A stretch of 62,274 nt of DNA, the filler included, from Basidiobolus ranarum (taxonomy: Eukaryota): the NCBI GenBank assembly GCA_040143965.1. It is 5 parts of 5 records of this genome, joined end to end, with 100 filler letters (N's around TTAATTAATTAA, not from the genome) between each part and the next. Parts side by side here need not be neighbours in the genome. Positions count along the whole stretch, not along the records: positions 12,489 to 24,874 come from JASJQH010007422.1; 4 more parts are not named here. One strand, given 5' to 3'. The position numbers were made by a program, and so were the translations under genes. This document shows, in pieces, positions 2 to 49,912 of the stretch (position 1 is the first letter of the stretch; each line of letters begins with the position of its first letter). The notes beneath the pieces are model-generated. The model saw only the letters and a list, made by a program, of their open reading frames with translations, was not told the origin of the DNA and searched no databases.

Positions 2-2535
2 AGTAGACTAGTAGTCTCACGCGCTGTAAAACAAATCACTCCAAAGCGTAAACAAATCTCCAGTTCATCTCAATCTTCTTGTGAAGGAGGCTCTGAGGAG
101 GAATCAACTTTGGATCAACGCTGTCCATCCGATTTTGAGGTTGAAGAGGATGGCGAGCAAACTGTGAATGGAAAGCGTAAGAAGTTAAGAAGTACGGTGG
201 AGACACCTCGAACACCTTTATCCTTCAAAGCAGTTGGTAATGAGCATAATCGTGATACACCTACTCCACGTTCAGCTGGTTCTAGCGTTCTCTGCAAAGC
301 ATTCCGAGTGCCCACCATGAAAAATGGAAACCCGTCTATGGACCCAAGTCAGCGCCTTCGTCCACTAACATTGGGAGTGCGTAGAAGGCCCGCGGTTATG
401 TGTCGCCCGCTTCATGACCCAGAAGAAGAGGGGGCACTTATATTGTATGTTCCACCTGTTTTAAGCTTAACTGAACAGCTGGAGCAACTCAAAAGTCATG
501 CAAAAACAGAGGAGCCTGAATCAAAAACATCGTCTGCAAAACAGCCACCACTACGAGTTCATGTTGTGGTTGATCCCAAGTTAACGAAAGTATTGAGACC
601 GCATCAAGTTGAAGGTGTAAGATTTTTGTATGAGTGTGTCACCGGACAAAGAGTTGAAGATGCATATGGTTGTATTATGGCAGATGAAATGGGTCTTGGA
701 AAAACTCTTCAATGCATTACTTTATTATGGACTTTAATACGACAATCACCAGATGCTGGAAAGCCTACAATTGATAAGTGTATCATTGTTTGTCCTAGTA
801 GTCTAGTCCGGAACTGGGCGAACGAATTAGGTACTGCAATATTAATACATTTCGTATTTATGTTTTCTAACCTAAACATTCTCAAGTCAAATGGCTAGGT
901 CCCAATAGCATCAGCCCATTGGCTTGCGACGGTAAGGGCACTAAAGAGAAAATCACCCAAGAACTTCAGAAATTCGTATCTGGCCGCGGGCGTATGAATG
1001 TATATCCCGTAGTCATCATCTCTTAAGAAACACTCCGCCTAACCGCACCGTTACTTCAAAAAACCCCACTCGGGCTTCTGCTTTGTGATGAAGGACATCG
1101 TTTAAAAAACTCGAATTCGCTTACGTTCCAAGCATTAAATCTTCTCCAAGTGCAACGAAGAGTCATTTTGTCAGGCACGCCGATTCAAAATGATTTATCC
1201 GAGTATTTCAGTTTGTTAAACTTTGCAAACCCAGGGCTACTAGGATCTCCAGCAGAGTTTCGGAAAAACTACGAGAATCCTATTCTTCGTGGACGCGATG
1301 CAATGGCAACTCAGCAAGAAAGAGATGTTAGTGATCTGAAACTAACTGAGCTTTATTCGATTGCAAACAAATTTATTATTCGACGTACGAATGACTTGCT
1401 CTCGAAATATCTCCCAGTCAAATACGAGCATATCGTATTTTGTAAGCTTAGTACGCTTCAGTTAGATTTGTACAATCTGTTTGTCAACTCAAAATCAGTT
1501 AAGAAGCTGCTCTCTGGATCTGGGTCCCAGCCTTTGAAAGCAATCACTATGTTGAAAAAACTTTGTAATCATCCTGGGTTATTGAACTTACCTAAAGATT
1601 TGGAGGGTTCCCAAGAGATATTGCCTCATAATTATTCCAATCAAACAGTCGATGCTCAGCTATCGGGGAAGATGCTGGTTCTTGAGCGAATGCTAATCAA
1701 CATTAAGAACAAAACTGACGACAAGATTGTACTTATTAGTAATTATACGCAAACTCTAGATATATTTGAAAAGATGTGCCGGTCTAGAAGGTTAGTCTGG
1801 TTTTGAACTCGGTTTAGCCATTGCATGTTATCTAATTCTTCAATTTCTATTCTAGTTTTCAATTCTTGAGGCTTGATGGTTCTATGACGATTTCCAAAAG
1901 ACAACAATTAGTAGACAAGTTCAATAATCCTCAAGGCCCAGAATTTGTCTTTCTTCTCAGTAGTAAGGCTGGTGGTTGTGGTCTCAACTTGATTGGTGCT
2001 AACCGTTTAGTTCTTTTCGATCCTGACTGGTACGTCTGAATCTCTGTTATAATGTTTCCGAATTTCGTCTTAACTTAATTGCCTTCACAGGAACCCGGCC
2101 TCAGATCAACAGGCACTAGCCCGTGTATGGCGAGACGGTCAGAAGAAGGATTGTTTTATATATCGATTCATCGCTACTGGATCGATTGAAGAAAAGATTT
2201 TCCAGCGCCAATCGCATAAGCAGTCGCTAAGCAGTTGTGTCGTAGATGAGGAAGAAAATGTGCAGAGACATTTCTCATCGGAAAACTTGAGACAACTATT
2301 TAAACTAAACGGCGAAACTATGTCAGAAACACACGACACTTACAAATGTCGGAGATGCCTGAAAGGCCGTCAACATCAAAATGCCACTGAACCCATGTCA
2401 TATGGTGATAGTTCATCATGGGATCACTTCAGTGAATTAGAATGGATGAAGGTTTACGACACTATACTCAGAGAAGCTGGAAAGGGAACAGCCTCTTACG
2501 CTTTCCAATACAAATCCCAAAGATTGGGTACATGA
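2..2535 (+). CDS. RAD54: DNA repair/recombination SNF2-family ATPase Rad54 (5' partial; in-frame TAA at 1024-1026)
   Basis: The frame is open from the window edge. Exons are about 2-830, 887-1790, 1856-2029 and 2091-2535. Motifs: [112 protein letters not shown]. One premature stop reads PVVIIS*ETLR. Confidence 0.95.
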
Positions 2536-12388: not shown

Positions 12389-12488
12389 NNNNNNNNNNNN
12401 NNNNNNNNNNNNNNNNNNNNNNNNNNNNNNNNTTAATTAATTAANNNNNNNNNNNNNNNNNNNNNNNNNNNNNNNNNNNNNNNNNNNN
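12389..12488. other. Artificial contig spacer (N44-TTAATTAATTAA-N44)
   Basis: Same 100-nt spacer occurs four times; the 12-mer gives stops in all six frames. Confidence 0.99.
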
Positions 12489-17556: not shown

Positions 17557-20383
17557 GTTAACATGGGTTTGAGAAAAGAAGTAATAAAATATAGTCTACA
17601 ACACTGCATGCGACCAGCCTTTATAGTTAAATATTATGGTGCAATCACCATATACTTACCATATGTTATTGCCCAAAAGGTACACCAAGGGTGTGCTTCG
17701 GGAATTAGAGATCAAGATCATCATTAGAGCAGCGCAACGACAAAAGGAAGCTGCTTTGGGAAATATTTGCTAATTCAACTTCGGTTAGTCCAATCACAGG
17801 GACCGTAAGAATTGATCCGAGTTGCCGAATCTAAAAATACCTGTAGGAACGGATTTTACGAGTTAAGTGAAATTAAATGCCAGTTATGACGATACAAGAT
17901 TGTCAACGCCCGATATGATTTACGATACATTCTAGAAGTAGCCTTATTTGCCTATAGCATACACCTTCCTTGTGCCATGAGTCAAACAAATCAAGATTAA
18001 GTTGAAGATTAACATTTGTAAGAAAAAAACTGAAGCCAATCAGGGCCACTCATACAACCAATGTAAAATCATGGAGTGATTTTCAGTAGAACCTTCCGCG
18101 AACATGCCTCATGATGAACATCCAATGCACGAAGGACATAAATTCACGCACGATTTGGCGCTTCTAATTTAAAACTATGATGAATTCATACGATCGCTTC
18201 AAATCCAATGCCGCTCTTAGCGACAGTATTTTTTATCTTTCAGTTGTTACATTAGTAGATGTCGCCATTTGGGTAGAGCAGGGAATATATCTGCGCTCAC
18301 TAGTTCAAGGTTTTTCTTGTTGAGTATGTAGTGAATGTTGAGGTAGTACTTCCCACAAGAGTGACTTCTATTTAGGTCATAGCAGAAGTTTTGCCGTGCC
18401 TAAATCATGAGATTCGGATGAAAGTATATAATGGGTTACACGACAAAGTGGAGATGTATTTCTATATTGGGCCCATCGACCCCAATATTAATAAGCTAGT
18501 TGCAGGTGCAAAACCTCTTTGGTATGATCAGGTGGCCCAAGTTCACCTTTGCGTATCTGACGTATTTTACTGACACTACAGTGAATTTGATGATGTTTGA
18601 TTGTTCACTTCAATTTGGTATAAAATTACTAGATGCAAGTGTAAAAACGGAAAATTTAAACTTCAACTGAAGGTACGAGTAGAATGTTAGACGCCGCTTC
18701 ATTTAAGGTTTTGTTCTTTTGTTAGCTGTACTGCAGCTTGGCCTAACAAAGTGAAGGATCGGATGGTGCCAAACTGAGTCGGTACCATAAGTATTGGCAA
18801 TGATGATTCGTCTTCGGATACTATACTGAAACCACTGATTCAACGACTGGTAAGTCACTATTTGGATAGCGACATTTCGCCCCCCCCCCAATATTTGCAC
18901 TGAGAATATCTTCCCACAAGCGGGAAGTTGCAGTCCTTCTCCTGATGTAGTGGCATTTCTATAGCAAGTTTTTCATCTCCTGACTTTGCATTGTTCTACG
19001 ATCTAAAATTAAAAATAGTTCCCCACAAAGTACTTATGTATTTGAGGACTGTTCTGTGGAGCTTAGTAACGCACCAACATAAAGCAAGGGCAGTGTTTAA
19101 TCAACATTAGAAACTAGTAACCAAGGCTGCTATGATCCCTATGTTGGAGTATTTTTACTTCCACGTATATTGTGAATGATGGCCAAGCTACAATGATATT
19201 TGAAGTAGCGCTGGTAGCAAGGCAGGAATTTTGGCGAGGCACATATAGCGGTTTGTTCACGTAGAACCCTAGAAGGTCAAAATCAATGCCACCCGATGGT
19301 GGAAGATATCCCAGTTCTGAAAGTCACTAAAGATAGATATTGACCAGCATTATTTGGAATGGCTTTACCTACCATCTAAAAGTCCATAGAAGCCGGATTA
19401 CATTATGAAGTAATTATCGGAAAACATATACTTGTATCAGCAATAAACTATTTGACTGAGCTAATGCTCTGCGATATACATATATCTAGTTGTAGTTTCT
19501 GAAGTAATCCTGACAGCATGAAGATAACTGAATACCTAATAATTAATATTATATACATATTGTTGACATATCATGACCGAGCACCTACATATTCAGATGA
19601 TGTATCAAACTCGTTCAATACCTCTCAGTTTACCTCAACTTCTTACTCACCCATATGCTTAGTCTTGAGCTTATCTTCAGCATGCAACAGATCTTAACTT
19701 CCACTGAGCTTAGCTAAGTGATCACAATTTATTTATTTAACCTCCAAATACTTCATAAGTAAGTTTATTGTTTAATCATCTCATTCATGTTTTGATTATC
19801 CTGAAACATGATATTTCATACATATCTTCCACATATGAACAGTCAATCTTGTATCACACACTGGTTGCCAACAAAGAGATTATCCACTCAATCATTATGG
19901 CACGTGACATTAGATGATTTCTTTGCTTCGGAAAGATATCATAACAAGATGTACTTCATGGCAGAAAAGTAAGCTATGCACGAGTACTGATTCAGGCCTT
20001 TGAAGTCCAGAGATGATTTTAGCAAACTATGCCAAAGTTGGTAGTATTTTTATGTCAGACTACTTGTGACTATTTGTATTGAAATACGATCGTTAAATCC
20101 ATTGAATAGGTGTGTCACTTGAATCGATCACAAGTAAACAGTGTTTGAATCAAATCAATATTCGGAACCTACCATAATTTAATCCAGTTTCACTCCAAAC
20201 ATTATTAGTGTCCACCGATTTTTAAAGGTTAATTTAAACTACTTTGCAGTATTGAGTATACTTACCCCAGTAGTGGTTTTAATCTTAGAGCAATCAATCA
20301 CTCTTTAGACTGTCTTGTTTAGGATGAAAAATATTTTGTGGACTAGAAAATATGAATTCCCTCTGACTAATATTATTCAAAAC

Positions 20384-23269
20384 ATGCGTTCCCGAAATAA
20401 ATACTATGCTGTACGTAAAGGCCGTATTCCTGGTATATTTAGCGACTGGAAAAGTTGCCAAGCACAAGTCCATAAATTTAAGAGTGCTCAGTTCAAGTCC
20501 TTTGAAACTTTATCTGAGGCTACAAATTATTTGGATGCTAAGCCTGAACAATTGGAGCATTGTACCGAATCCAATAGCTGGAAAATAGTCTTTGGGAAAT
20601 CTAACCCAGACCAGAAGAATGTACCATATACCAGCCATGAGGCGGTGTCTCTTCCATTCAAAGACCATGACGAATTAGATTTAGATTTAGCTTTAGAATA
20701 CTACTTTGATTCAATGCCAGAAATAGCGGCCGAAACCGAGGAGGTACTGACGCCATACATAAGAACAGAATTACGCAAAAACGGGTTTATTTTTAGTGAA
20801 TATGTGGACCCCACATGGTTAGCAGCGCCGACAAACTTAACTGAAGAGCCCCCTGATGTTATTGAGGCTGAACAAAGAATTTATAGCTCCACGATGACTG
20901 AGCCAACCTTTAAAGAGAATATTAGAAAGAAAAGTCCCTCTCCGGAATGTATTCAACCTGGAGGACTGAACTCAAACGTGAACCAAACTGCAAAAACTCC
21001 AGTTGAAGAAGATTCATTCTTTGATTGGAAGTCGGATTTTATTGCGTTTAACGATTCTTTTGAGGAGTTCGAGATGACTGAGACAGAAAAAGTGAACTTA
21101 TCGTTAGAACAACAACAAGTTTTGGAGGCATTCGTAAGTAATTCAATTCAAGATATGTTGTGTAGTACTCGTATCAACCCTGACTTAATCCTACTTCACA
21201 TCGTAGCAAAAAGAATCGAATTTATTCATTACCGGATCAGCTGGTGTAGGCAAGAGTTTTATTTTGAAGGAGGTTATCAAAAAATGTTACGCAATGAAAA
21301 GGTTTTGTGCTGTGACCGCCTCTACAGGAATCGCGGCTATAGCTTTGAACGGGCATACTGTACATTCCTTTGCACGTCTCAACCTAGGTCAAGATCCTGC
21401 TACAAAGATGTACTTTTACTTTCAATTCGATAATACTTTCCCTAGTCTATTCTCAACTAACATCTTTCAACATAGTGCGGCGAAGATTCTGTACAATTCG
21501 ACGTGTAAATCAACCCGGGAACTAATGAAAACCTTGGAGGTGTTGATCATAGATGAAATATCTATGTTATCCGATGATATTTTTGAAAAGTTGAATGTGG
21601 TGTTGCAAATGGTACGAGATAAACCCGTGCCTTTTGGGGGAGTGCAAATGGTCATCTGCGGAGACTTTTATGTAAATTCATATGCCTATAACTCTGAGTA
21701 AGGATTCCCATCATTAACCTCTGTCGCATTTCTTTAAACACAGCAACTTCCCCCCGTTCCTAGCAAACGTTATTGTCCAGTATGCGGCTCTGATGCTAAT
21801 GCCTCGGCTCCTAATCATGGACGAACTATGGTGTATTGTGTAGGTGAAGTAAACAATGATTTGTGCGGGACACTGTACGATACAGAGACAAGATTTGTGT
21901 TCGAATCTAAAATATGGGACGCAAGCGAATTCCTAGTATTTGAGATGAAGCAAGTATTTCGCCAATCTGATGAGCACTTTGTGAAGGTTTTGAATAAGAT
22001 ACGACTTGGAATTTGTGATAGTGAGGTACTTGCTACCCTACAAGGATGCAATCGCTCTGTTCATAACGAAGTAAGTTCCCATTGTATTTTCGGAATGTAG
22101 CAGATCCCGTTGACTGAATACCTCACAGAGTATATCTCGTTTGTATTGTACGAGAGACCAAGTCATGCACGAAAACACCCGAGAATTTCTGAAAATTCCT
22201 GAAGCTGTATATTGCTATGAGGCATTAGATGGATGGCCCCATCCACAATTTGCATACTTAGCTGACCAGGTGATTGATTTATGCATTCGTATCTGTCTAC
22301 TGCTAGATGTTTAAGATAGCTTATTAGATCAGCCAAGGCCCAATCCCAGATCAAATCAAGCTGAAGGTTGGATGTAAGGTACTTCTTGTCAAGAATATCA
22401 ACTTCAAACTAGGTCTCGTTAATGGAGCCCAAGGTGTTATCACTCGCGTAAGTCCGTGCACCAGTTATTAGAATGTCCTCTCATCTTGCTTACCGTTGAT
22501 AGTTTGAGCAAATCAGACCTACGCACAAGCATCCCGAATACAAGAGTGAGCCATACCCCCTTCAGACTGCATTTAATGCCTGGGAGGCCATGGAGACACA
22601 TCAATGGGTTCCGGTGGTCAAATTTGCCAATGGTATTGAGTGCGCCATTAAACAGACCTATTGGACCATAGAAACGATGAGTTGTGTGATAGCCTGGAGG
22701 ATTGGCCTACCTTTAATATTGTCGTACGTATTATACATATTCATGCTTCTATTTCTCGCTGAGCCAAGGTGTTTAATTTCATTCTACCACAGGTTTGCTA
22801 TAACCGTACATAAATCGCAAGGAATGACTCTCGATTACGTCAGAGTAAGACTCATTCATATACTCATATCAGTCGATATTGGTTGTTCAAAAGTAGCTTT
22901 TATGCACAGATTTCGTTGCAACGAGCTTTCTCTCCAGGTCAAGCTTATGTTGCTATTAGCCGTGCACGTAGTTTAGAAAATCTTCAGTTGGACATGTTTA
23001 ATGACTGGGTTATTCGAGCACACCCAAGAGTTAAAGAATTTTACCAAAAGATTCAAGAGCCTGTCATACGTTCATCTATGACAATCAAAAGAAAGTGGGA
23101 ATCAACAAAATCAACCCCTAACGCCATTGATTGTGGAATATTCGAGAGGGGGCTTTCGAAAACCCCAGATCATTTTGGGGATAAAGGGATGCCCGATCAA
23201 AAGGAGCAACGTTTACATGAGCTACCGTCCGAAGTTCCTCGAAAGTCCCTGAGGTATTTCAATGTGTAA
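20384..23269 (+). CDS. PIF1: Pif1-family SF1B helicase with N-terminal RNase H1-type hybrid-binding (Cauli_VI) domain
   Basis: Nine exons: 20384-21133, 21207-21409, 21476-21671, 21744-22070, 22129-22269, 22328-22447, 22503-22723, 22793-22844, 22910-23269 (alternative in-frame ATG at 20324). Motifs: FITGSAGVGKS, TASTGIAA, TVHSFA, LIIDEISML, PFGGVQMVICGDFYQLPPV, QVFRQSD, LKVGCKVLLVKN, LVNGAQG, AITVHKSQGMTL, GQAYVAISRARSL. N-terminus: KYYAVRKGRIPGIFSDWKSCQAQVHKFKSAQFKSF. Orthology to canonical PIF1 is not established. Confidence 0.92.
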
Positions 23270-24393
23270 ACACCTGTCTACCTGAAGGGTGCAGCAACCG
23301 ATTTAATCTAGGATTCGTATTATCCTTCTGTATACTTTATGCTTGTTCTATACAACACTTGTTACCTATTTATATTCAACCGTGTATCTGTTGCTTAGAC
23401 ACTGAGGTTCACTTACTACAGATAGAAACCTCGCATGCACCATAGATTACACCTATCTATGCCAAAGCTAGGAAGCACGTTCTTTGAATACTGGTTCGAT
23501 GCGAGAAACAACAATAATATTTGAAATAAACAGGCTTAGCGATCTTAATAGTAAATACGTCGATGGCAATCCTCAGTACTTTTATGAATGTCCACACGTT
23601 TATTTCACCGAGGTAGTTAGAACAACGGTTTGCATTTATGAAAATCGTACGCACTATGCTTGAAATATGAACTTTCGTCGACTTGCAATTTACCAAATTT
23701 CTCCAACAAGCACTTGGATCCAATTTTAAGCTGTATAACTGGGACTGAACGCCTGGTTACTAAAAATCGTAGCGAAGAAGCGCTGAAATCCAAGTCACAC
23801 AAGAGTATATTAACGTTGGTGGAAGTTCCGGAATACTTGTCGAGATTCTAATGAGATTTCATTGGTACAAACATACTAGTGAGTATATATAACAGTCCAA
23901 TCGCTCAGATAAGAACACTTCCCTCATTTGCTTACAATTTAGCACGACCAATTGGTTCTCTTTTAGGCAATGACTTGGGTGAATTCCAGGATGGATGTCT
24001 GCTGTTCGTTTGCTGAATTCGATGGGTGTTATTTCATGATTTGATATTAAATAGCATGATAATAAGTCTATTTATCTCCAATCCACCAATTACATAATAA
24101 TAGCAAATGGATTTGTAGTAGTCAAATCCAAGCCTAACATCCCCAACCATAGGCGAGACTGAAGTGAAAAAAGAACCAGAGCAATATGATCCGGATGAAG
24201 TGTGTAAACGGAGGAACCGTTCGGAATCAGATACCGGAATTTTCTTAACCTGCCAAAATTGAACACTACTCGACTCAATTGTCTTTGACCAATATAGATT
24301 GAACATGCGCCCGAAATCGTGGCCTGGCCAATTTGGTTCTCATTATAAATAGCAAGCTGTGAGATTGCTGCCTGTACATCTCACCCGTCTTTG

Positions 24394-24874
24394 ATGTTTT
24401 TTCTGACGCTTTTGGCTATCGTTTCAGCGGTTCAGATCGGAGCTGTTCAACATCCTTCGTATATTGTTGGAGGCTCTATAGTTCGAACGAACGAACTTCC
24501 GTTTGCTGTTCATCTTTTAGCAGATAATTCCCCCAGGTGTGGAGCTGCCATACTTAGTCCCAACTGGATTGTGACTGCTGCACATTGTATAACCAAGAAC
24601 AATGCCCTCATCACATCCAAGTTGACTGTGACAGTTGGTAGTGCAGGAGAGGGGAAAGTCTATCAGATTAAGAGTATGGTCTACCATCCTGACTATGACT
24701 CCACTAGTTTTAAAAATGACATTGCAATAATTCGAATGGAAAACTCACTTCCTGTCAATTCCAAAACTCAACCGATACCGATCAGTCTTGCAACAGTGGA
24801 GCCTAACGAGACTTTAAGAGCTGCCGGATGGGGACAAACCGAAATGGAAGTGAACTCAAAGCAATTACGTGAGG
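24394..24874 (+). CDS. Secreted trypsin-like serine protease (S1), 3' truncated
   Basis: Signal peptide, IVGG mature N-terminus, CGAAILSPNWIVTAAHC (catalytic His), NDIAII (catalytic Asp), AAGWG. TATAAAT lies upstream at about 24344. Confidence 0.93.
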
Positions 24875-24974
24875 NNNNNNNNNNNNNNNNNNNNNNNNNN
24901 NNNNNNNNNNNNNNNNNNTTAATTAATTAANNNNNNNNNNNNNNNNNNNNNNNNNNNNNNNNNNNNNNNNNNNN
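24875..24974. other. Artificial contig spacer
   Basis: N44-TTAATTAATTAA-N44. Confidence 0.99.
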
Positions 24975-37346: not shown

Positions 37347-37446
37347 NNNNNNNNNNNNNNNNNNNNNNNNNNNNNNNNNNNNNNNNNNNNTTAATTAATT
37401 AANNNNNNNNNNNNNNNNNNNNNNNNNNNNNNNNNNNNNNNNNNNN
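37347..37446. other. Artificial contig spacer
   Basis: N44-TTAATTAATTAA-N44. Confidence 0.99.
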
Positions 37447-46870: not shown

Positions 46871-47643
46871 TTAGTTAGGATCTTGCATTTCCTCCTGAAT
46901 TTCGGGTGGGAAGTTCTTGATTAGTTGTTTAATTCTTTCTTTCATCTCGTTGGTATCATTGACATTAGGGAAAGGTTCGTCAGGAATAGGTTTGCCAAGG
47001 AACTTACATAGAGGCTCCCATCCATCTTTAACTTCAAATACTAGCAGTTTATCTGCAGGAATGGTCCGTTTTACCTCTTCAACGTGTTGTTTGAAATAGT
47101 TGATAGCCCATTCTTTGTCTTCGAAACGTCCTTGGAAGCAACCGGTCGGCCCCCATGTTGATTTATCAATCATCTCTTGTACTAACTTTTGCTCGTCAGT
47201 AGCATAGCCAAGCTCAATTGCCTTATTCATAATCTTAGTTAGGCCATGGACAGTATCGTGGCAACTCTTATACCATCTCTCAGGATCTCGCACAGTCAAG
47301 ATTACTTTGGCATCAGGTGATCTCTGATAGAGGTCTTTGTACCACCAGCAAGCTGGGTTGTCTACTGTAGCATTATATCCATCAAATATCTTATCCCAGT
47401 TAGGATTTCCTAATGTTATATGTAATTTGAATGTTAAGAAGTCATCTTAGTTACTGTACAGGTAAAAATACCCTTACCTTCAGCAGCTTCAACCCAAAGA
47501 GGTGAGTATACCTCTGGCTTGGAGACGGCCACTATCATATGGTAGGTACGATATCCCAGTTTATCGAGCGCAGCTTTCAAGGACATGGTACCAGTGCGAC
47601 CGAAGCCGGCGCCTATTACTTCGAGATTACTATTATTGACCAT
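46871..47643 (-). CDS. Sulfotransferase-like P-loop protein (Sulfotransfer_4-type), paralog A
   Basis: LEVIGAGFGRTGTMSLKAALDKLGY..YHM, WDKIFDGYNATVDNP, PDAKVILTVRDPERWYKS, VKRTIPADKLLVFEVKDGWEPLCKFLGKPIPDEPFPNVN. One intron at about 47411-47477. Confidence 0.9.
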
Positions 47644-48267: not shown

Positions 48268-49040
48268 ATGGCTAAACCAAGTGAACTTCAAATAATTGGC
48301 GCTGGTTATTGCCGTACCGGTACCATGTCCACAAAAACTGCACTCGACAAGCTAGGCTATAACACCCATCATATGTTCGAGGTGATGAAAAACATGGAGA
48401 CCCAGGGCCCTCTTTGGCTTGATGTAGTGGCTGGTAGGTCTTGTGTACTCATCTGAATCTAAACTTGAGCTAATTATTTAACCTATGCTATATGATGAAA
48501 GGCAAGCCTGACTGGGACAAGATATTCGAAAACTACAGTGCCTCTGTTGATTGTCCGTCATTTTGGTGGTACAAAGAACTGAGCCAAAAGTACCCAGATG
48601 CCAAGATTGTCTTGACAGTAAGAGATCCTGAAAAGTGGTATCAGAGTTGTTACAATACAATATATCAACTTTACAAATGCAGTACTTTAATATGTGATGC
48701 CGATGATTTAAATCAAACCCATAAGTTGATCACAACTTTAGCAAACGAAGTCATATGGGGACCAACTGGTTGTTTCCAAGGGCGCTTCAAAGATAAAGAG
48801 TGGACTATCAACCAGTTCAAACAGCATATTGAAGAGGTAAAGCGGACCATTCCTGCAGATAAACTGCTAGTATTTGAAGTTAAAGAAGGGTGGGAGCCTT
48901 TATGTAAGTTCCTTGGCAAACCTGTTCCTGACGAACCTTTCCCTCATGTCAACGATACTAACGAGATGAAGGAACGACTTAAGCAGAGATTAACGAATTT
49001 ATCGCCTGAAATGAGAGAAGAGTTCAAAGATTGTATCTAA
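48268..49040 (+). CDS. Sulfotransferase-like P-loop protein, paralog B
   Basis: LQIIGAGYCRTGTMSTKTALDKLGY, DWDKIFENYSASVDCP, PDAKIVLTVRDPEKWYQS, GWEPLCKFLGKPVPDEPFPHVN. One intron at the position equivalent to paralog A. Confidence 0.9.
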
Positions 49041-49812: not shown

Positions 49813-49912
49813 NNNNNNNNNNNNNNNNNNNNNNNNNNNNNNNNNNNNNNNNNNNNTTAATTAATTAANNNNNNNNNNNNNNNNNNNNNNNNNNNNNNNN
49901 NNNNNNNNNNNN
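49813..49912. other. Artificial contig spacer
   Basis: N44-TTAATTAATTAA-N44. Confidence 0.99.

What the first reader, a model, noticed from the sequence alone, without database searches (positions are those of the whole stretch)
20384..23269. RNase H1 hybrid-binding domain fused to a complete Pif1-family helicase: candidate dedicated R-loop / RNA:DNA-hybrid helicase
Seen: exon 1 begins with KYYAVRKGRIPGIFSDWKSCQAQVHKFKSAQFKSFETLSEATNYL (20399-20533). It continues without a stop through a ~190-aa acidic linker into LSLEQQQVL and splices in frame to the Pif1 Walker A exon. All helicase motifs are intact across nine exons, and there is no RNase H catalytic domain. Known: this is the N-terminal hybrid-binding domain of eukaryotic RNase H1 (Cauli_VI family; Y/F-Y-A-V-x2-G-R, the conserved Trp and FKxF are all present). 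Canonical Pif1 has a different N-terminal domain, and yeast Pif1 preferentially unwinds RNA:DNA hybrids. Inference: domain shuffling built a helicase targeted to hybrids (R-loops, Okazaki primers, telomeric or retroelement hybrids) that unwinds rather than cleaves them. I do not know this architecture as a characterised system.
Basis: partly seen in the sequence, partly recalled or inferred. Interest (0 to 1): 0.88.

Follow-up and report, generated by a model that had tools for sequence, protein, structure and literature searches.

The report
Pif1 helicase with RNase H1 hybrid-binding domain

Summary
Window 20384-23269 (+) is a nine-exon, 789-codon gene. Exon 1 carries a full RNase H1 hybrid-binding domain (HBD; Pfam Cauli_VI, 72.5 bits, E 3e-20). 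An alignment-based model of it superposes on human HBD 3BSU at 0.8 A. After a 188-residue acidic linker the same open frame enters the Pif1 domain (LSLEQQQV), and all helicase motifs follow. No RNase H catalytic domain is present.

The novelty claim does not hold. HBD+PIF1 proteins are present in public databases: 3 of 120 word-search hits and 16 of 150 profile-search representatives. The named ones come from Agaricales, Polyporales, Sebacinales, Tremellomycetes and rusts. A preprint reports that an earlier bioinformatic study found "RNase H1-like" accessory domains on amoebal PIF1 helicases. I found no experimental work on any of them.

What is new is modest. The source looks like an early-diverging, Mucoromycota-like fungus. 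Its helicase core is excluded from the basidiomycete HBD-Pif1 clade (AU p 0.002). It shares a four-cysteine insertion with HBD-less proteins of Sporobolomyces and Salpingoeca. The fusion therefore probably arose more than once.

The function, tethering a 5'-3' helicase to RNA:DNA hybrids, is inferred. No transcript data were available.

The parts
20324..20326 (+). Upstream in-frame ATG, 20 codons before the modelled start (MKNILWTRKYEFPLTNIIQN). A possible alternative start.
   Evidence: the frame is open from 20309, with in-frame Met codons at 20324, 20384, 20714, 20894 and 21074.
20384..21133 (+). Exon 1, 250 codons: HBD, acidic linker and the first conserved motif of the Pif1 domain.
20399..20533 (+). 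RNase H1-type hybrid-binding domain (Cauli_VI, PF01693), residues 6-50.
   Evidence: 72.5 bits, E 3.2e-20, profile 1-44 of 44; ungapped match to 3bsu_A, E 8.3e-9; model pLDDT 86.8, 3bsu_A rmsd 0.8 A over 46 columns, TM 0.91 by target.
20534..21097 (+). 188-residue acidic linker with no family match, probably disordered.
   Evidence: D+E 39, K+R 16; no Pfam hit there; open-frame P 2.9e-6; the single-sequence model has pLDDT under 50 across it, which is only weak evidence.
21098..21121 (+). LSLEQQQV, the conserved motif that opens the Pif1 domain, still inside exon 1.
   Evidence: it lies in an ungapped block with the [LC]-[ST]-x-[ED]-Q-x-x-[VI] motif of 10 of 10 aligned homologues, at the same spacing to Walker A; the PIF1 profile starts at positions 1-3 at this motif in 8 of 8 homologues scanned.
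21134..21206 (+). Intron 1, 73 nt, GTAAGT...TAG. It shifts the frame into the helicase frame.
21207..21409 (+). Exon 2: Walker A GSAGVGKS (21234-21257) and motif Ia VTASTGIAA.
21410..21475 (+). Intron 2, 66 nt, GTACTT...CATAG with a CTAAC branch site. It holds no stop codon and its length is a multiple of three, so retaining it would not break the frame.
   Evidence: the 22 residues it would encode are absent from all homologues.
21476..21671 (+). Exon 3: Walker B IDEISM, the Pif1 signature and the start of motif III (PFGGVQMVICGDFY).
21744..22070 (+). Exon 4: the rest of motif III (QLPPV), the Cys4 insertion and motif IV VFRQ.
21774..21866 (+). CxxC-(17)-C-(8)-C insertion between motifs III and IV. 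A putative zinc-binding knuckle with no Pfam family.
   Evidence: an insertion of over 50 residues with at least 4 Cys occurs in WIN and 7 of 120 hits (5 Sporobolomyces, P0033, Salpingoeca P0058); 0 of 150 canonical representatives have it; only a sub-threshold GRAM hit.
22129..22269 (+). Exon 5.
   Evidence: tblastn with P0005..
22328..22447 (+). Exon 6: 2B/SH3-like segment KLKVGCKVLLVKN...LVNGAQGVI.
   Evidence: The aligned stretch of the homologues is Pif1_2B_dom.
22503..22723 (+). Exon 7.
22793..22844 (+). Exon 8: motif V HKSQG.
22910..23269 (+). Exon 9: motif VI GQAYVAISR, a basic C-terminal tail, and the TAA stop at 23267-23269.

Best explanation
This is one intron-bearing nuclear gene of an early-diverging (Mucoromycota-like) fungus. 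It encodes a 789-residue protein with three parts: an N-terminal RNase H1-type hybrid-binding domain, a roughly 190-residue acidic and probably flexible linker, and a complete Pif1-family SF1B helicase that carries a four-cysteine insertion.

Most likely mechanism. The HBD docks on the minor groove of an RNA:DNA duplex, such as an R-loop, primer, telomeric hybrid or mitochondrial hybrid. The linker keeps the motor close by. The Pif1 core loads on adjacent single-stranded DNA, moves 5' to 3' and strips the RNA. Hybrids are thus removed by unwinding rather than cleavage. The tether would compensate for Pif1's short reach per binding event.

Shown here: the gene structure, both domains, the predicted fold of the HBD, intact motifs, and recurrence of the architecture elsewhere. 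Inferred: hybrid binding by this HBD, helicase polarity and activity, the in vivo substrates, and that the HBD is present on the mature protein.
For: Single gene:
- The HBD and the first Pif1 motif lie in one 250-codon frame whose 188-codon linker would be open by chance with P about 3e-6.
- The block LSLEQQQVLEAF|QKESNLFITGSAGVGKS spans the splice junction without a gap against 10 of 10 homologues.
- The HBD sits at residues 6-50. In the other HBD-Pif1 proteins it likewise lies at the N-terminus: alignment starts at residues 3-44 in the 17 proteins with an N-terminal copy, while P0245 shows only a partial match at 154-175.

HBD:
- Pfam 72.5 bits.
- 3BSU E 8.3e-9, ungapped.
- Alignment-based AF2 model with pLDDT 86.8 matches 3bsu_A at rmsd 0.8 A.
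- Trp22 and Lys38 align with human W43 and K59. W43A and KK59/60AA are said to compromise hybrid binding (PMC10639055, passage).

Helicase:
- PIF1 99.4 bits on exon 2.
- ScPif1 5o6b E 7e-24.
- All motifs present.

Functional logic:
- ScPif1 preferentially unwinds RNA-DNA hybrids but only 15-20 bp per binding event (PMC8998199, passages).
- PIF1 is listed among R-loop-resolving helicases (PMC10641170, passages).

Recurrence: the same fusion occurs in 16 of 150 representatives. It sits on helicase cores that do not form one clade (AU p 0.0021), which argues that the fusion is selected for.
Against: - There is no transcript evidence for the start codon or for intron 1. In-frame Met codons at 20714, 20894 and 21074 could give HBD-less isoforms.
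- Human K60 is Ser39 here, and is Ser in most Pif1-linked HBDs, so affinity and specificity may differ. HBDs also bind dsRNA (recalled).
- The helicase sits on a long branch of 1.3-1.8 changes per site, so function may have drifted.
- No close relative was found that would show purifying selection. The best identity is 41-44%, and nothing was found in metagenome contigs.
- The review read notes doubt that ScPif1 acts directly on long R-loops.
Confidence: 0.6

Rival explanations
1. The fusion protein is real, but the HBD is not an R-loop targeting device. It serves another role of RNase H1-type N-terminal domains. It could bind dsRNA or primer RNA in mitochondrial DNA replication. It could act as a regulatory or auto-inhibitory N-terminal domain, as the ScPif1 NTD does. 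It could be a localisation or interaction module.
For: - The ScPif1 NTD already modulates ssDNA affinity and hybrid preference without being an HBD (PMC8998199, passage).
- The human K60 equivalent is Ser.
- Two in-frame ATGs 60 nt apart (20324 and 20384) recall the dual nuclear/mitochondrial start sites of ScPif1 (abstract of 10.1101/2024.01.21.576553 in the listing).
- RNase H1 itself has a mitochondrial role (recalled).
Against: - The fold and 4 of 5 contact residues match a domain solved on an RNA/DNA 12-mer.
- The 20-residue N-terminal extension is short and contains a Glu, which makes it a poor presequence.
- No experiment exists for either reading.
Confidence: 0.22
2. The HBD and the helicase are not on one polypeptide in vivo. 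There could be a small HBD-only gene followed by a Pif1 gene that starts at an internal Met. Alternatively, alternative transcription or splicing could separate them.
For: - There are no RNA data.
- HBD-only small proteins are common: Atlas clusters of 89-161 aa with Cauli_VI, one mostly basidiomycete (scores 0.82-0.83, leads only).
- Internal Met codons exist.
- The exon 1 query found no longer homologue (0 of 1828 candidates).
Against: - There is no stop between the HBD and the Pif1 motif in 250 codons, against 16 and 29 stops in the other frames.
- The Pif1 domain begins inside exon 1.
- The identical domain order is annotated as a single protein in many other fungi.
Confidence: 0.08
3. The gene is a fast-evolving, possibly decaying or mobile-element-derived Pif1-like copy (Helitron-like or an expanded family) without a conserved cellular role.
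For: - The branch is long and the placement unresolved.
- No close orthologue was found.
- The own genome is not held, so copy number is unknown.
Against: - The frame is intact over nine exons and every motif is present.
- The gene has eight spliceosomal introns.
- No Rep or transposase family was found on the exon pieces scanned.
- The neighbours look like ordinary cellular genes from their ORF translations: a Rad54-type ATPase confirmed by homologues, and mitochondrial-carrier-like and trypsin-like ORFs by reading only.
- The only flanking repeat is a 23-nt pair at 78% identity with an 11-nt exact core, roughly what chance gives in 9.5 kb.
Confidence: 0.05

Closest known systems
Basidiomycete Pif1 proteins with an N-terminal Cauli_VI domain, for example P0111 Serendipita sp. 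398 FRC16_005162, the Serendipita indica 'related to PIF1 protein precursor' cluster, and P0313 Grifola frondosa PIF1
   Same: The domain order is the same: HBD at the extreme N-terminus, a variable linker, the LSxEQ motif, then a complete Pif1 core. The HBD has the same KSF variant in place of human KKF.
   Different: Their helicase cores form a well-supported clade (SH-aLRT 99; 22 rows in the 56-row tree) inside the canonical fungal Pif1 clade (also SH-aLRT 99). The window protein is outside it (AU p 0.0024). They lack the Cys4 insertion, and their linkers are shorter (about 40-120 residues) and unrelated in sequence.
Cys4-insertion Pif1-like proteins of Sporobolomyces spp. (P0004, P0005, P0008, P0012, P0019), Salpingoeca rosetta PTSG_03482 (P0058) and the unnamed P0033
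   Same: They share a cysteine-rich insertion at the same site between motifs III and IV. They group with the window protein in two of three trees (SH-like 84, SH-aLRT 93). A clade with them is not rejected (AU p 0.43).
   Different: They have no HBD: 0 of 5 Sporobolomyces proteins by Pfam, and no match in any of the 7 to my own HBD profile. Their N-termini are long and low-complexity, and their insertions are longer.
Eukaryotic RNase H1 (human 3BSU and 6VRD; yeast 1QHK)
   Same: The N-terminal HBD is homologous and shares the fold: 46% identity and 0.8 A to 3bsu_A. As in RNase H1, the HBD is joined to the enzymatic domain by a linker; that this linker is flexible is an inference.
   Different: The effector domain is a helicase, not the RNase H nuclease; no RNase H family hit was found. 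The linker is about three times longer than the RNase H1 connection domain (that length is recalled). Human K60 is Ser here.
Saccharomyces cerevisiae Pif1/Rrm3, S. pombe Pfh1, human PIF1
   Same: The SF1B core has all the same motifs and the Pif1 signature. The best solved match is ScPif1 5o6b/8xak at E 7e-24.
   Different: Their N-terminal domains are described as not conserved and hold no HBD (PMC8998199, passage). The window core is probably not an orthologue (AU p 0.041 for a clade with 16 canonical fungal rows, which is borderline).
Amoebal PIF1 helicases with 'RNase H1-like RNA binding' accessory motifs, as reported in Andis et al., bioRxiv 10.1101/163188, citing their reference 14
   Same: This is the same idea in print: a PIF1 motor fused to an RNase H1-like nucleic-acid-binding module.
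   Different: I could not read the primary paper. It is not in the library, the preprint's reference list is not held, and supplements are closed. So domain order, homology and taxa could not be compared. The unnamed P0362 and P0373 may or may not be of this kind.

Membership tests
RNase H1 hybrid-binding domain (Pfam PF01693 Cauli_VI) | Full-length match to the family profile above the curated cut-off | tested here: met
   72.5 bits against a cut-off of 21, E 3.2e-20, residues 6-49 on profile 1-44 of 44.
RNase H1 hybrid-binding domain (Pfam PF01693 Cauli_VI) | Small three-stranded sheet plus two helices, superposable on a solved HBD | tested here: met
   18-row alignment model, pLDDT 86.8, elements E7-12, E17-19, H22-29, E36-40, H43-51; 3bsu_A rmsd 0.8 A over 46 columns, probability 1.00; next is 1qhk; all other matches have E above 1.
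RNase H1 hybrid-binding domain (Pfam PF01693 Cauli_VI) | Nucleic-acid contact residues (human Y29, W43, F58, K59, K60) | tested here: inconclusive
   The alignment gives Y8, W22, F37 and K38 conserved, and K60 replaced by S39. The importance of W43 and K59/K60 comes from PMC10639055. Y29 and F58 are recalled.
RNase H1 hybrid-binding domain (Pfam PF01693 Cauli_VI) | Preferential binding of RNA:DNA hybrids | not testable with these tools
   Needs gel-shift or fluorescence binding assays with the purified domain.
Pif1-family SF1B helicase (Pfam PF05970) | Profile match above the cut-off | tested here: met
   exon 2-3 piece 99.4 bits against a cut-off of 25.9. ScPif1 and human PIF1 structures at E 7e-24 to 1.7e-21.
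Pif1-family SF1B helicase (Pfam PF05970) | Motifs I, Ia, II, III, IV, V and VI, and the Pif1 signature between II and III | tested here: met
   GSAGVGKS, VTASTGIAA, IDEISM, PFGGVQMVICGDFYQLPPV, VFRQ, HKSQG and GQAYVAISR. All are colinear with 10 homologues.
Pif1-family SF1B helicase (Pfam PF05970) | 2B/SH3-like insertion domain | tested here: met
   exon 6 aligns at 48-53% identity to the stretch that is Pif1_2B_dom in the homologues. The window exon itself was too short to scan alone.
Pif1-family SF1B helicase (Pfam PF05970) | ATP-dependent 5'-3' unwinding | not testable with these tools
   Biochemical assay needed.
Canonical fungal Pif1/Rrm3/Pfh1 orthologue group | Helicase core falls inside the clade | tested here: inconclusive
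   outside a 31-row clade with SH-aLRT 99. One search test B: AU p 0.041, delta lnL 20.2 (LG+G4, group named after seeing the tree, long branch).
Basidiomycete HBD-Pif1 clade | Helicase core falls inside the clade, meaning one shared fusion event | tested here: not met
   One search test A: AU p 0.0024, delta lnL 49.2. One search test D (all HBD bearers as one clade): p 0.0021.
RNase H1 enzyme | RNase H catalytic domain | tested here: not met
   no RNase H family among the hits on 5 exon pieces at E up to 0.1. Exons 5, 6 and 8 were not scanned by Pfam but align to helicase segments.
Helitron Rep/Hel transposase | HUH Rep domain N-terminal to the helicase, few or no introns, element termini | tested here: not met
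   exon 1 hits Cauli_VI only; eight introns; no meaningful terminal repeats. Copy number is untestable.

The most novel reading that the evidence does not exclude
The RNase H1 hybrid-binding domain has been captured independently by different Pif1 lineages. One capture is in the canonical Pif1 of Basidiomycota. Another is in the Cys4-insertion paralogue seen here in an early-diverging fungus. Others may be the unnamed P0362/P0373 group and the amoebal proteins. If so, this is convergent, natural evidence that RNA:DNA hybrids are a principal in vivo substrate of Pif1 motors, and that tethering overcomes their short processivity on hybrids. The window protein would be the only one among the 270 examined that combines the HBD with the putative zinc knuckle.
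Probability: 0.45. Interest if true: 0.6.

Novelty: new member of a known kind. Interest (0 to 1): 0.45.

Why it matters
Whether Pif1 helicases act directly on R-loops in cells is still argued. The review PMC8998199 (passages) describes conflicting results at tRNA genes and notes ScPif1's 15-20 bp reach on hybrids.

A natural and recurrent fusion of the standard hybrid-recognition module to Pif1 is evolutionary evidence for a direct role. It also offers ready-made proteins for a clean test: full length against HBD-deleted or Trp-mutant forms on RNA:DNA and DNA:DNA substrates.

For annotation, the useful points are two. The PIF1 of many basidiomycetes carries this domain without comment. And a second Pif1 lineage, marked by a cysteine-rich insertion, has acquired it in this fungus.

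Tried and rejected
Steps that gave nothing:
- Own genome: not held, so I could not ask about copy number, a second canonical Pif1 or an RNase H1 gene.
- Exon 1 as query for longer homologues: 0 of 1828 candidates scored. The linker is not conserved and HBD words are too short.
- Single-sequence AF2 of exon 1: mean pLDDT 39, uninformative. I replaced it with an alignment-based model of the first 60 residues.
- ESM Atlas with exon 1: only Cauli_VI clusters at 0.82-0.83, below the level at which hits mean much.
- Close relatives in JGI metagenome contigs with exon 4: 256 pattern matches, none confirmed.
- Earlier findings of this scan: nothing by place, words or sequence.

Phylogeny:
- The careful IQ-TREE search and the AU test under the C20 mixture model did not finish on one CPU.
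- I fell back on a 33-row set under LG+G4. By the tool's own notes this set-up is somewhat more prone to false rejection.
- The three tandem two-helicase proteins P0001-P0003 were left out of all trees.
- The 33- and 56-row sets were hand-picked from the 270 proteins.

Considered and rejected:
- A Helitron or other mobile element (see rivals).
- A 23-nt direct repeat at 20015 and 23445 bracketing the gene, which is at chance level.
- Source organism in Pucciniomycotina. The Sporobolomyces hits first suggested this. I dropped it after the Rad54 fragment gave its best identities (71-73%) to Glomeromycotina, Umbelopsis and Mortierellomycotina, with a flat 62-73% across the 120 listed proteins, which span several fungal phyla.

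Literature: ten searches.
- 'Pif1' with 'Cauli_VI' gave 0 papers.
- 'PIF1' with 'RNase H1-like' gave only the Andis preprint.
- No experimental paper on an HBD-Pif1 protein appeared.
- Subscription journals, the amoeba paper itself and all supplements were out of reach.
Full report
WHAT IS THERE

The region was read directly and all frames listed. An ATG at 20384 opens a frame that runs without a stop to beyond 21133. tblastn with four homologues, plus the splice signals visible, gives nine exons: 20384-21133, 21207-21409, 21476-21671, 21744-22070, 22129-22269, 22328-22447, 22503-22723, 22793-22844 and 22910-23269.

Joined in a script, these make 2370 nt, 789 codons and one terminal TAA. The eight GT..AG introns are 55-73 nt long, and several have CTAAC/CTGAC-like branch sites.

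THE TWO DOMAINS

Exon 1 matches Pfam Cauli_VI (RNase H1 N-terminal domain) over the whole profile, at 72.5 bits against a cut-off of 21 and E 3.2e-20. It aligns without a gap to the human RNase H1 HBD solved on an RNA/DNA 12-mer (3bsu_A, E 8.3e-9) and to the yeast domain 1qhk.

A single-sequence fold of the whole exon was useless (pLDDT 39). A model of residues 1-60 built on an 18-row alignment reached pLDDT 86.8. In the PDB it finds only HBDs: five 3bsu chains at E 6e-5 to 9e-4 (chain A at rmsd 0.8 A over 46 columns), then 1qhk. Everything else has E above 1.

Trp22 and Lys38 align with human W43 and K59. W43A and KK59/60AA are reported to compromise hybrid binding (PMC10639055, passages). 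Human K60 is Ser here.

Exons 2-3 match PIF1 at 99.4 bits and ScPif1 structures at E 7e-24. Motifs I, Ia, II, the signature with III, IV, 2B, V and VI are all present and colinear with ten homologues. No RNase H catalytic family was hit.

ONE GENE OR TWO

No RNA data could be had, so the case is comparative and statistical.

First, the 188-codon linker between the HBD and the Pif1 motif is open, while the other two forward frames of exon 1 hold 16 and 29 stops. From its composition the chance of that is 2.9e-6, and 1 of 200,000 shuffles stayed open.

Second, the Pif1 domain begins inside exon 1. LSLEQQQV lines up with the [LC]-[ST]-x-[ED]-Q-x-x-[VI] motif of 10 of 10 homologues. The block across the junction, LSLEQQQVLEAF|QKESNLFITGSAGVGKS, is ungapped with identical spacing. 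In 8 of 8 homologues scanned, the PIF1 profile starts at exactly this motif.

Third, the HBD lies at the very N-terminus, as it does in the other HBD-Pif1 proteins.

HBD-less isoforms from the internal Met codons at 20714, 20894 or 21074 cannot be excluded. An upstream in-frame ATG at 20324 could add 20 residues.

WHOSE GENOME

The window is gene-dense, at about 38% G+C, and its neighbours look like ordinary cellular genes. A Rad54 fragment is 71-73% identical to Rhizophagus, Glomus and Umbelopsis. Identity then runs on a flat 62-73% plateau across the 120 listed proteins, which include Mortierellomycotina, Mucorales, Zoopagomycota, Ascomycota and Basidiomycota.

The source is therefore an early-diverging fungus, most like Mucoromycota, with no close annotated relative. 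The window's own protein is not among the 120 best hits listed for the exon 2-3 query (best identity 44%).

IS THE ARCHITECTURE NEW? NO.

Among the 120 best proteins found with exon 2, three carry Cauli_VI plus PIF1 in the precomputed lists. All three were confirmed by Pfam at E 6e-17 to 5e-12. Five Sporobolomyces proteins have none.

A profile of those three, searched against 1.84 billion representatives, gave 61,818 hits. Among the best 150, my HBD profile finds 16 clear N-terminal HBDs (domain E below 1e-7) and two remnants.

Names recovered:
- Agaricales and relatives: Volvariella volvacea, Marasmius oreades, Mycena citricolor, Ephemerocybe angulata, and a cluster holding a Schizophyllum amplum fragment.
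- Polyporales: Grifola frondosa, Abortiporus biennis, Phlebia brevispora.
- Sebacinales: Serendipita sp. 398 and S. indica.
- Tremellomycetes: Kwoniella newhampshirensis and two Cryptococcus species.
- Rusts: Puccinia striiformis and Austropuccinia psidii.
- Remnants: Ceratobasidium and Phanerochaete.

Several are labelled 'ATP-dependent DNA helicase PIF1'. In the 56-row tree they form a 22-row clade (SH-aLRT 99) inside the canonical fungal Pif1 clade (31 rows, SH-aLRT 99). Sixteen of those 22 bear the HBD.

In print, Andis et al. (bioRxiv 10.1101/163188, introduction) say a bioinformatic study found amoebal PIF1 helicases with 'RNase H1-like RNA binding' accessory motifs. I could not read that study. 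None of ten searches found an experiment on such a protein. The library lacks most subscription journals, and supplements were closed.

WHERE THE WINDOW PROTEIN SITS

It has a long branch (1.3-1.8 changes per site) and no close relative.

In FastTree on 260 rows it joins Salpingoeca P0058 and five Sporobolomyces proteins (SH-like 84). In the 56-row PMSF tree it lies in a 9-row set with these, P0033 and P0023 (SH-aLRT 93). In a 33-row LG+G4 tree its position is unresolved.

A discrete character agrees with this placement. A CxxC...C...C insertion lies between motifs III and IV. It occurs in the window protein and 7 of the 120 hits (those same proteins) and in 0 of the 150 canonical representatives.

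AU tests on the 33-row set:

| Test | Rows forced into one clade | p-AU | Outcome |
|---|---|---|---|
| A | Window + basidiomycete clade | 0.0024 | Rejected |
| D | All HBD bearers | 0.0021 | Rejected |
| F | P0362/P0373 + basidiomycetes | 0.018 | Rejected |
| B | Window + canonical fungal Pif1 | 0.041 | Borderline |
| E | Window + P0362/P0373 | 0.08 | Not rejected |
| C | Window + Cys4 proteins | 0.43 | Not rejected |

Caveats: the groups were named after trees had been seen, the model is LG+G4, long branches are involved, and the mixture-model tests did not finish. With those reservations, the HBD seems to have been joined to Pif1 at least twice.

HOW IT PROBABLY WORKS (INFERRED)

The HBD would anchor the protein on an RNA:DNA duplex, and the long acidic linker would leave the motor free. 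The Pif1 core, loaded on neighbouring single-stranded DNA, would move 5' to 3' and displace the RNA.

ScPif1 already prefers RNA-DNA hybrids but unwinds only 15-20 bp per binding event (PMC8998199, passages). A hybrid-specific tether would be expected to raise local concentration and allow repeated attempts. This resembles what the HBD is said to do for RNase H1 processivity (recalled).

Possible arenas are R-loops at transcription-replication conflicts, telomeric hybrids, primers and mitochondrial DNA. Nothing here discriminates among them.

VERDICT

The architecture is already widespread in databases and has been noted once in the literature. This gene is a new, probably independently fused member, in a different Pif1 lineage and a different fungal phylum. 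Interest is moderate.

Noticed in passing
window 21774-21866: A four-cysteine insertion (CxxC, 17 residues, C, 8 residues, C) lies between helicase motifs III and IV. It has no Pfam family. Only 5 Sporobolomyces proteins, the unnamed P0033 and Salpingoeca rosetta P0058 share it. It may mark an unrecognised opisthokont Pif1 paralogue with a zinc knuckle.
   Followed up: partly
window 20324-20386: Two in-frame ATGs lie 60 nt apart ahead of the HBD and bracket MKNILWTRKYEFPLTNIIQN. This is reminiscent of the dual-start, dual-targeting arrangement described for ScPif1. The peptide is short and contains a Glu, so this is only a thought.
   Followed up: no
P0041 (Ceratobasidium sp. AG-Ba PIF1) residues 8-52; P0248 (Phanerochaete sordida PIF1) residues 8-39: These carry degenerate remnants of the HBD (E about 3e-4 against my small profile) at the N-terminus of Pif1 proteins that sit inside the HBD-bearing clade. 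This suggests secondary decay of the domain in some basidiomycetes.
   Followed up: partly
P0001 (1305 aa), P0002 (1480 aa), P0003 (Ceratobasidium theobromae, 1165 aa): These were the best-scoring hits to exon 2. Each holds two complete Pif1 helicase cores in tandem in one predicted protein. They were left out of the trees.
   Followed up: no
P0362 (684 aa) and P0373 (669 aa), unnamed records: A third group of HBD-Pif1 proteins falls outside the fungal canonical clade (AU p 0.018 against joining the basidiomycetes). Their taxon is unknown. They may correspond to the protist cases mentioned in the literature.
   Followed up: partly
window 12389-12488, 24875-24974, 37347-37446, 49813-49912: Four pairs of 44-base N runs recur about every 12.46 kb. 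The regular spacing suggests masking rather than assembly gaps. None touches the gene.
   Followed up: no
window 46874-47446 (-) and 48474-49037 (+): Two divergently oriented ORFs encode clearly paralogous proteins (...WDKIF..Y.A.VD.P..WWYK.L....PDAK..LTVRDPE.WY...), about 1 kb apart. This looks like a local duplication. The family was not identified.
   Followed up: no
window 2-2532 (+); 24349-24927 (+): The neighbouring ORFs look like ordinary cellular genes: a Rad54/Rhp54-type SNF2 ATPase (71-73% identity to Glomeromycotina and Umbelopsis) and an ORF with an IVGG trypsin-like start.
   Followed up: partly
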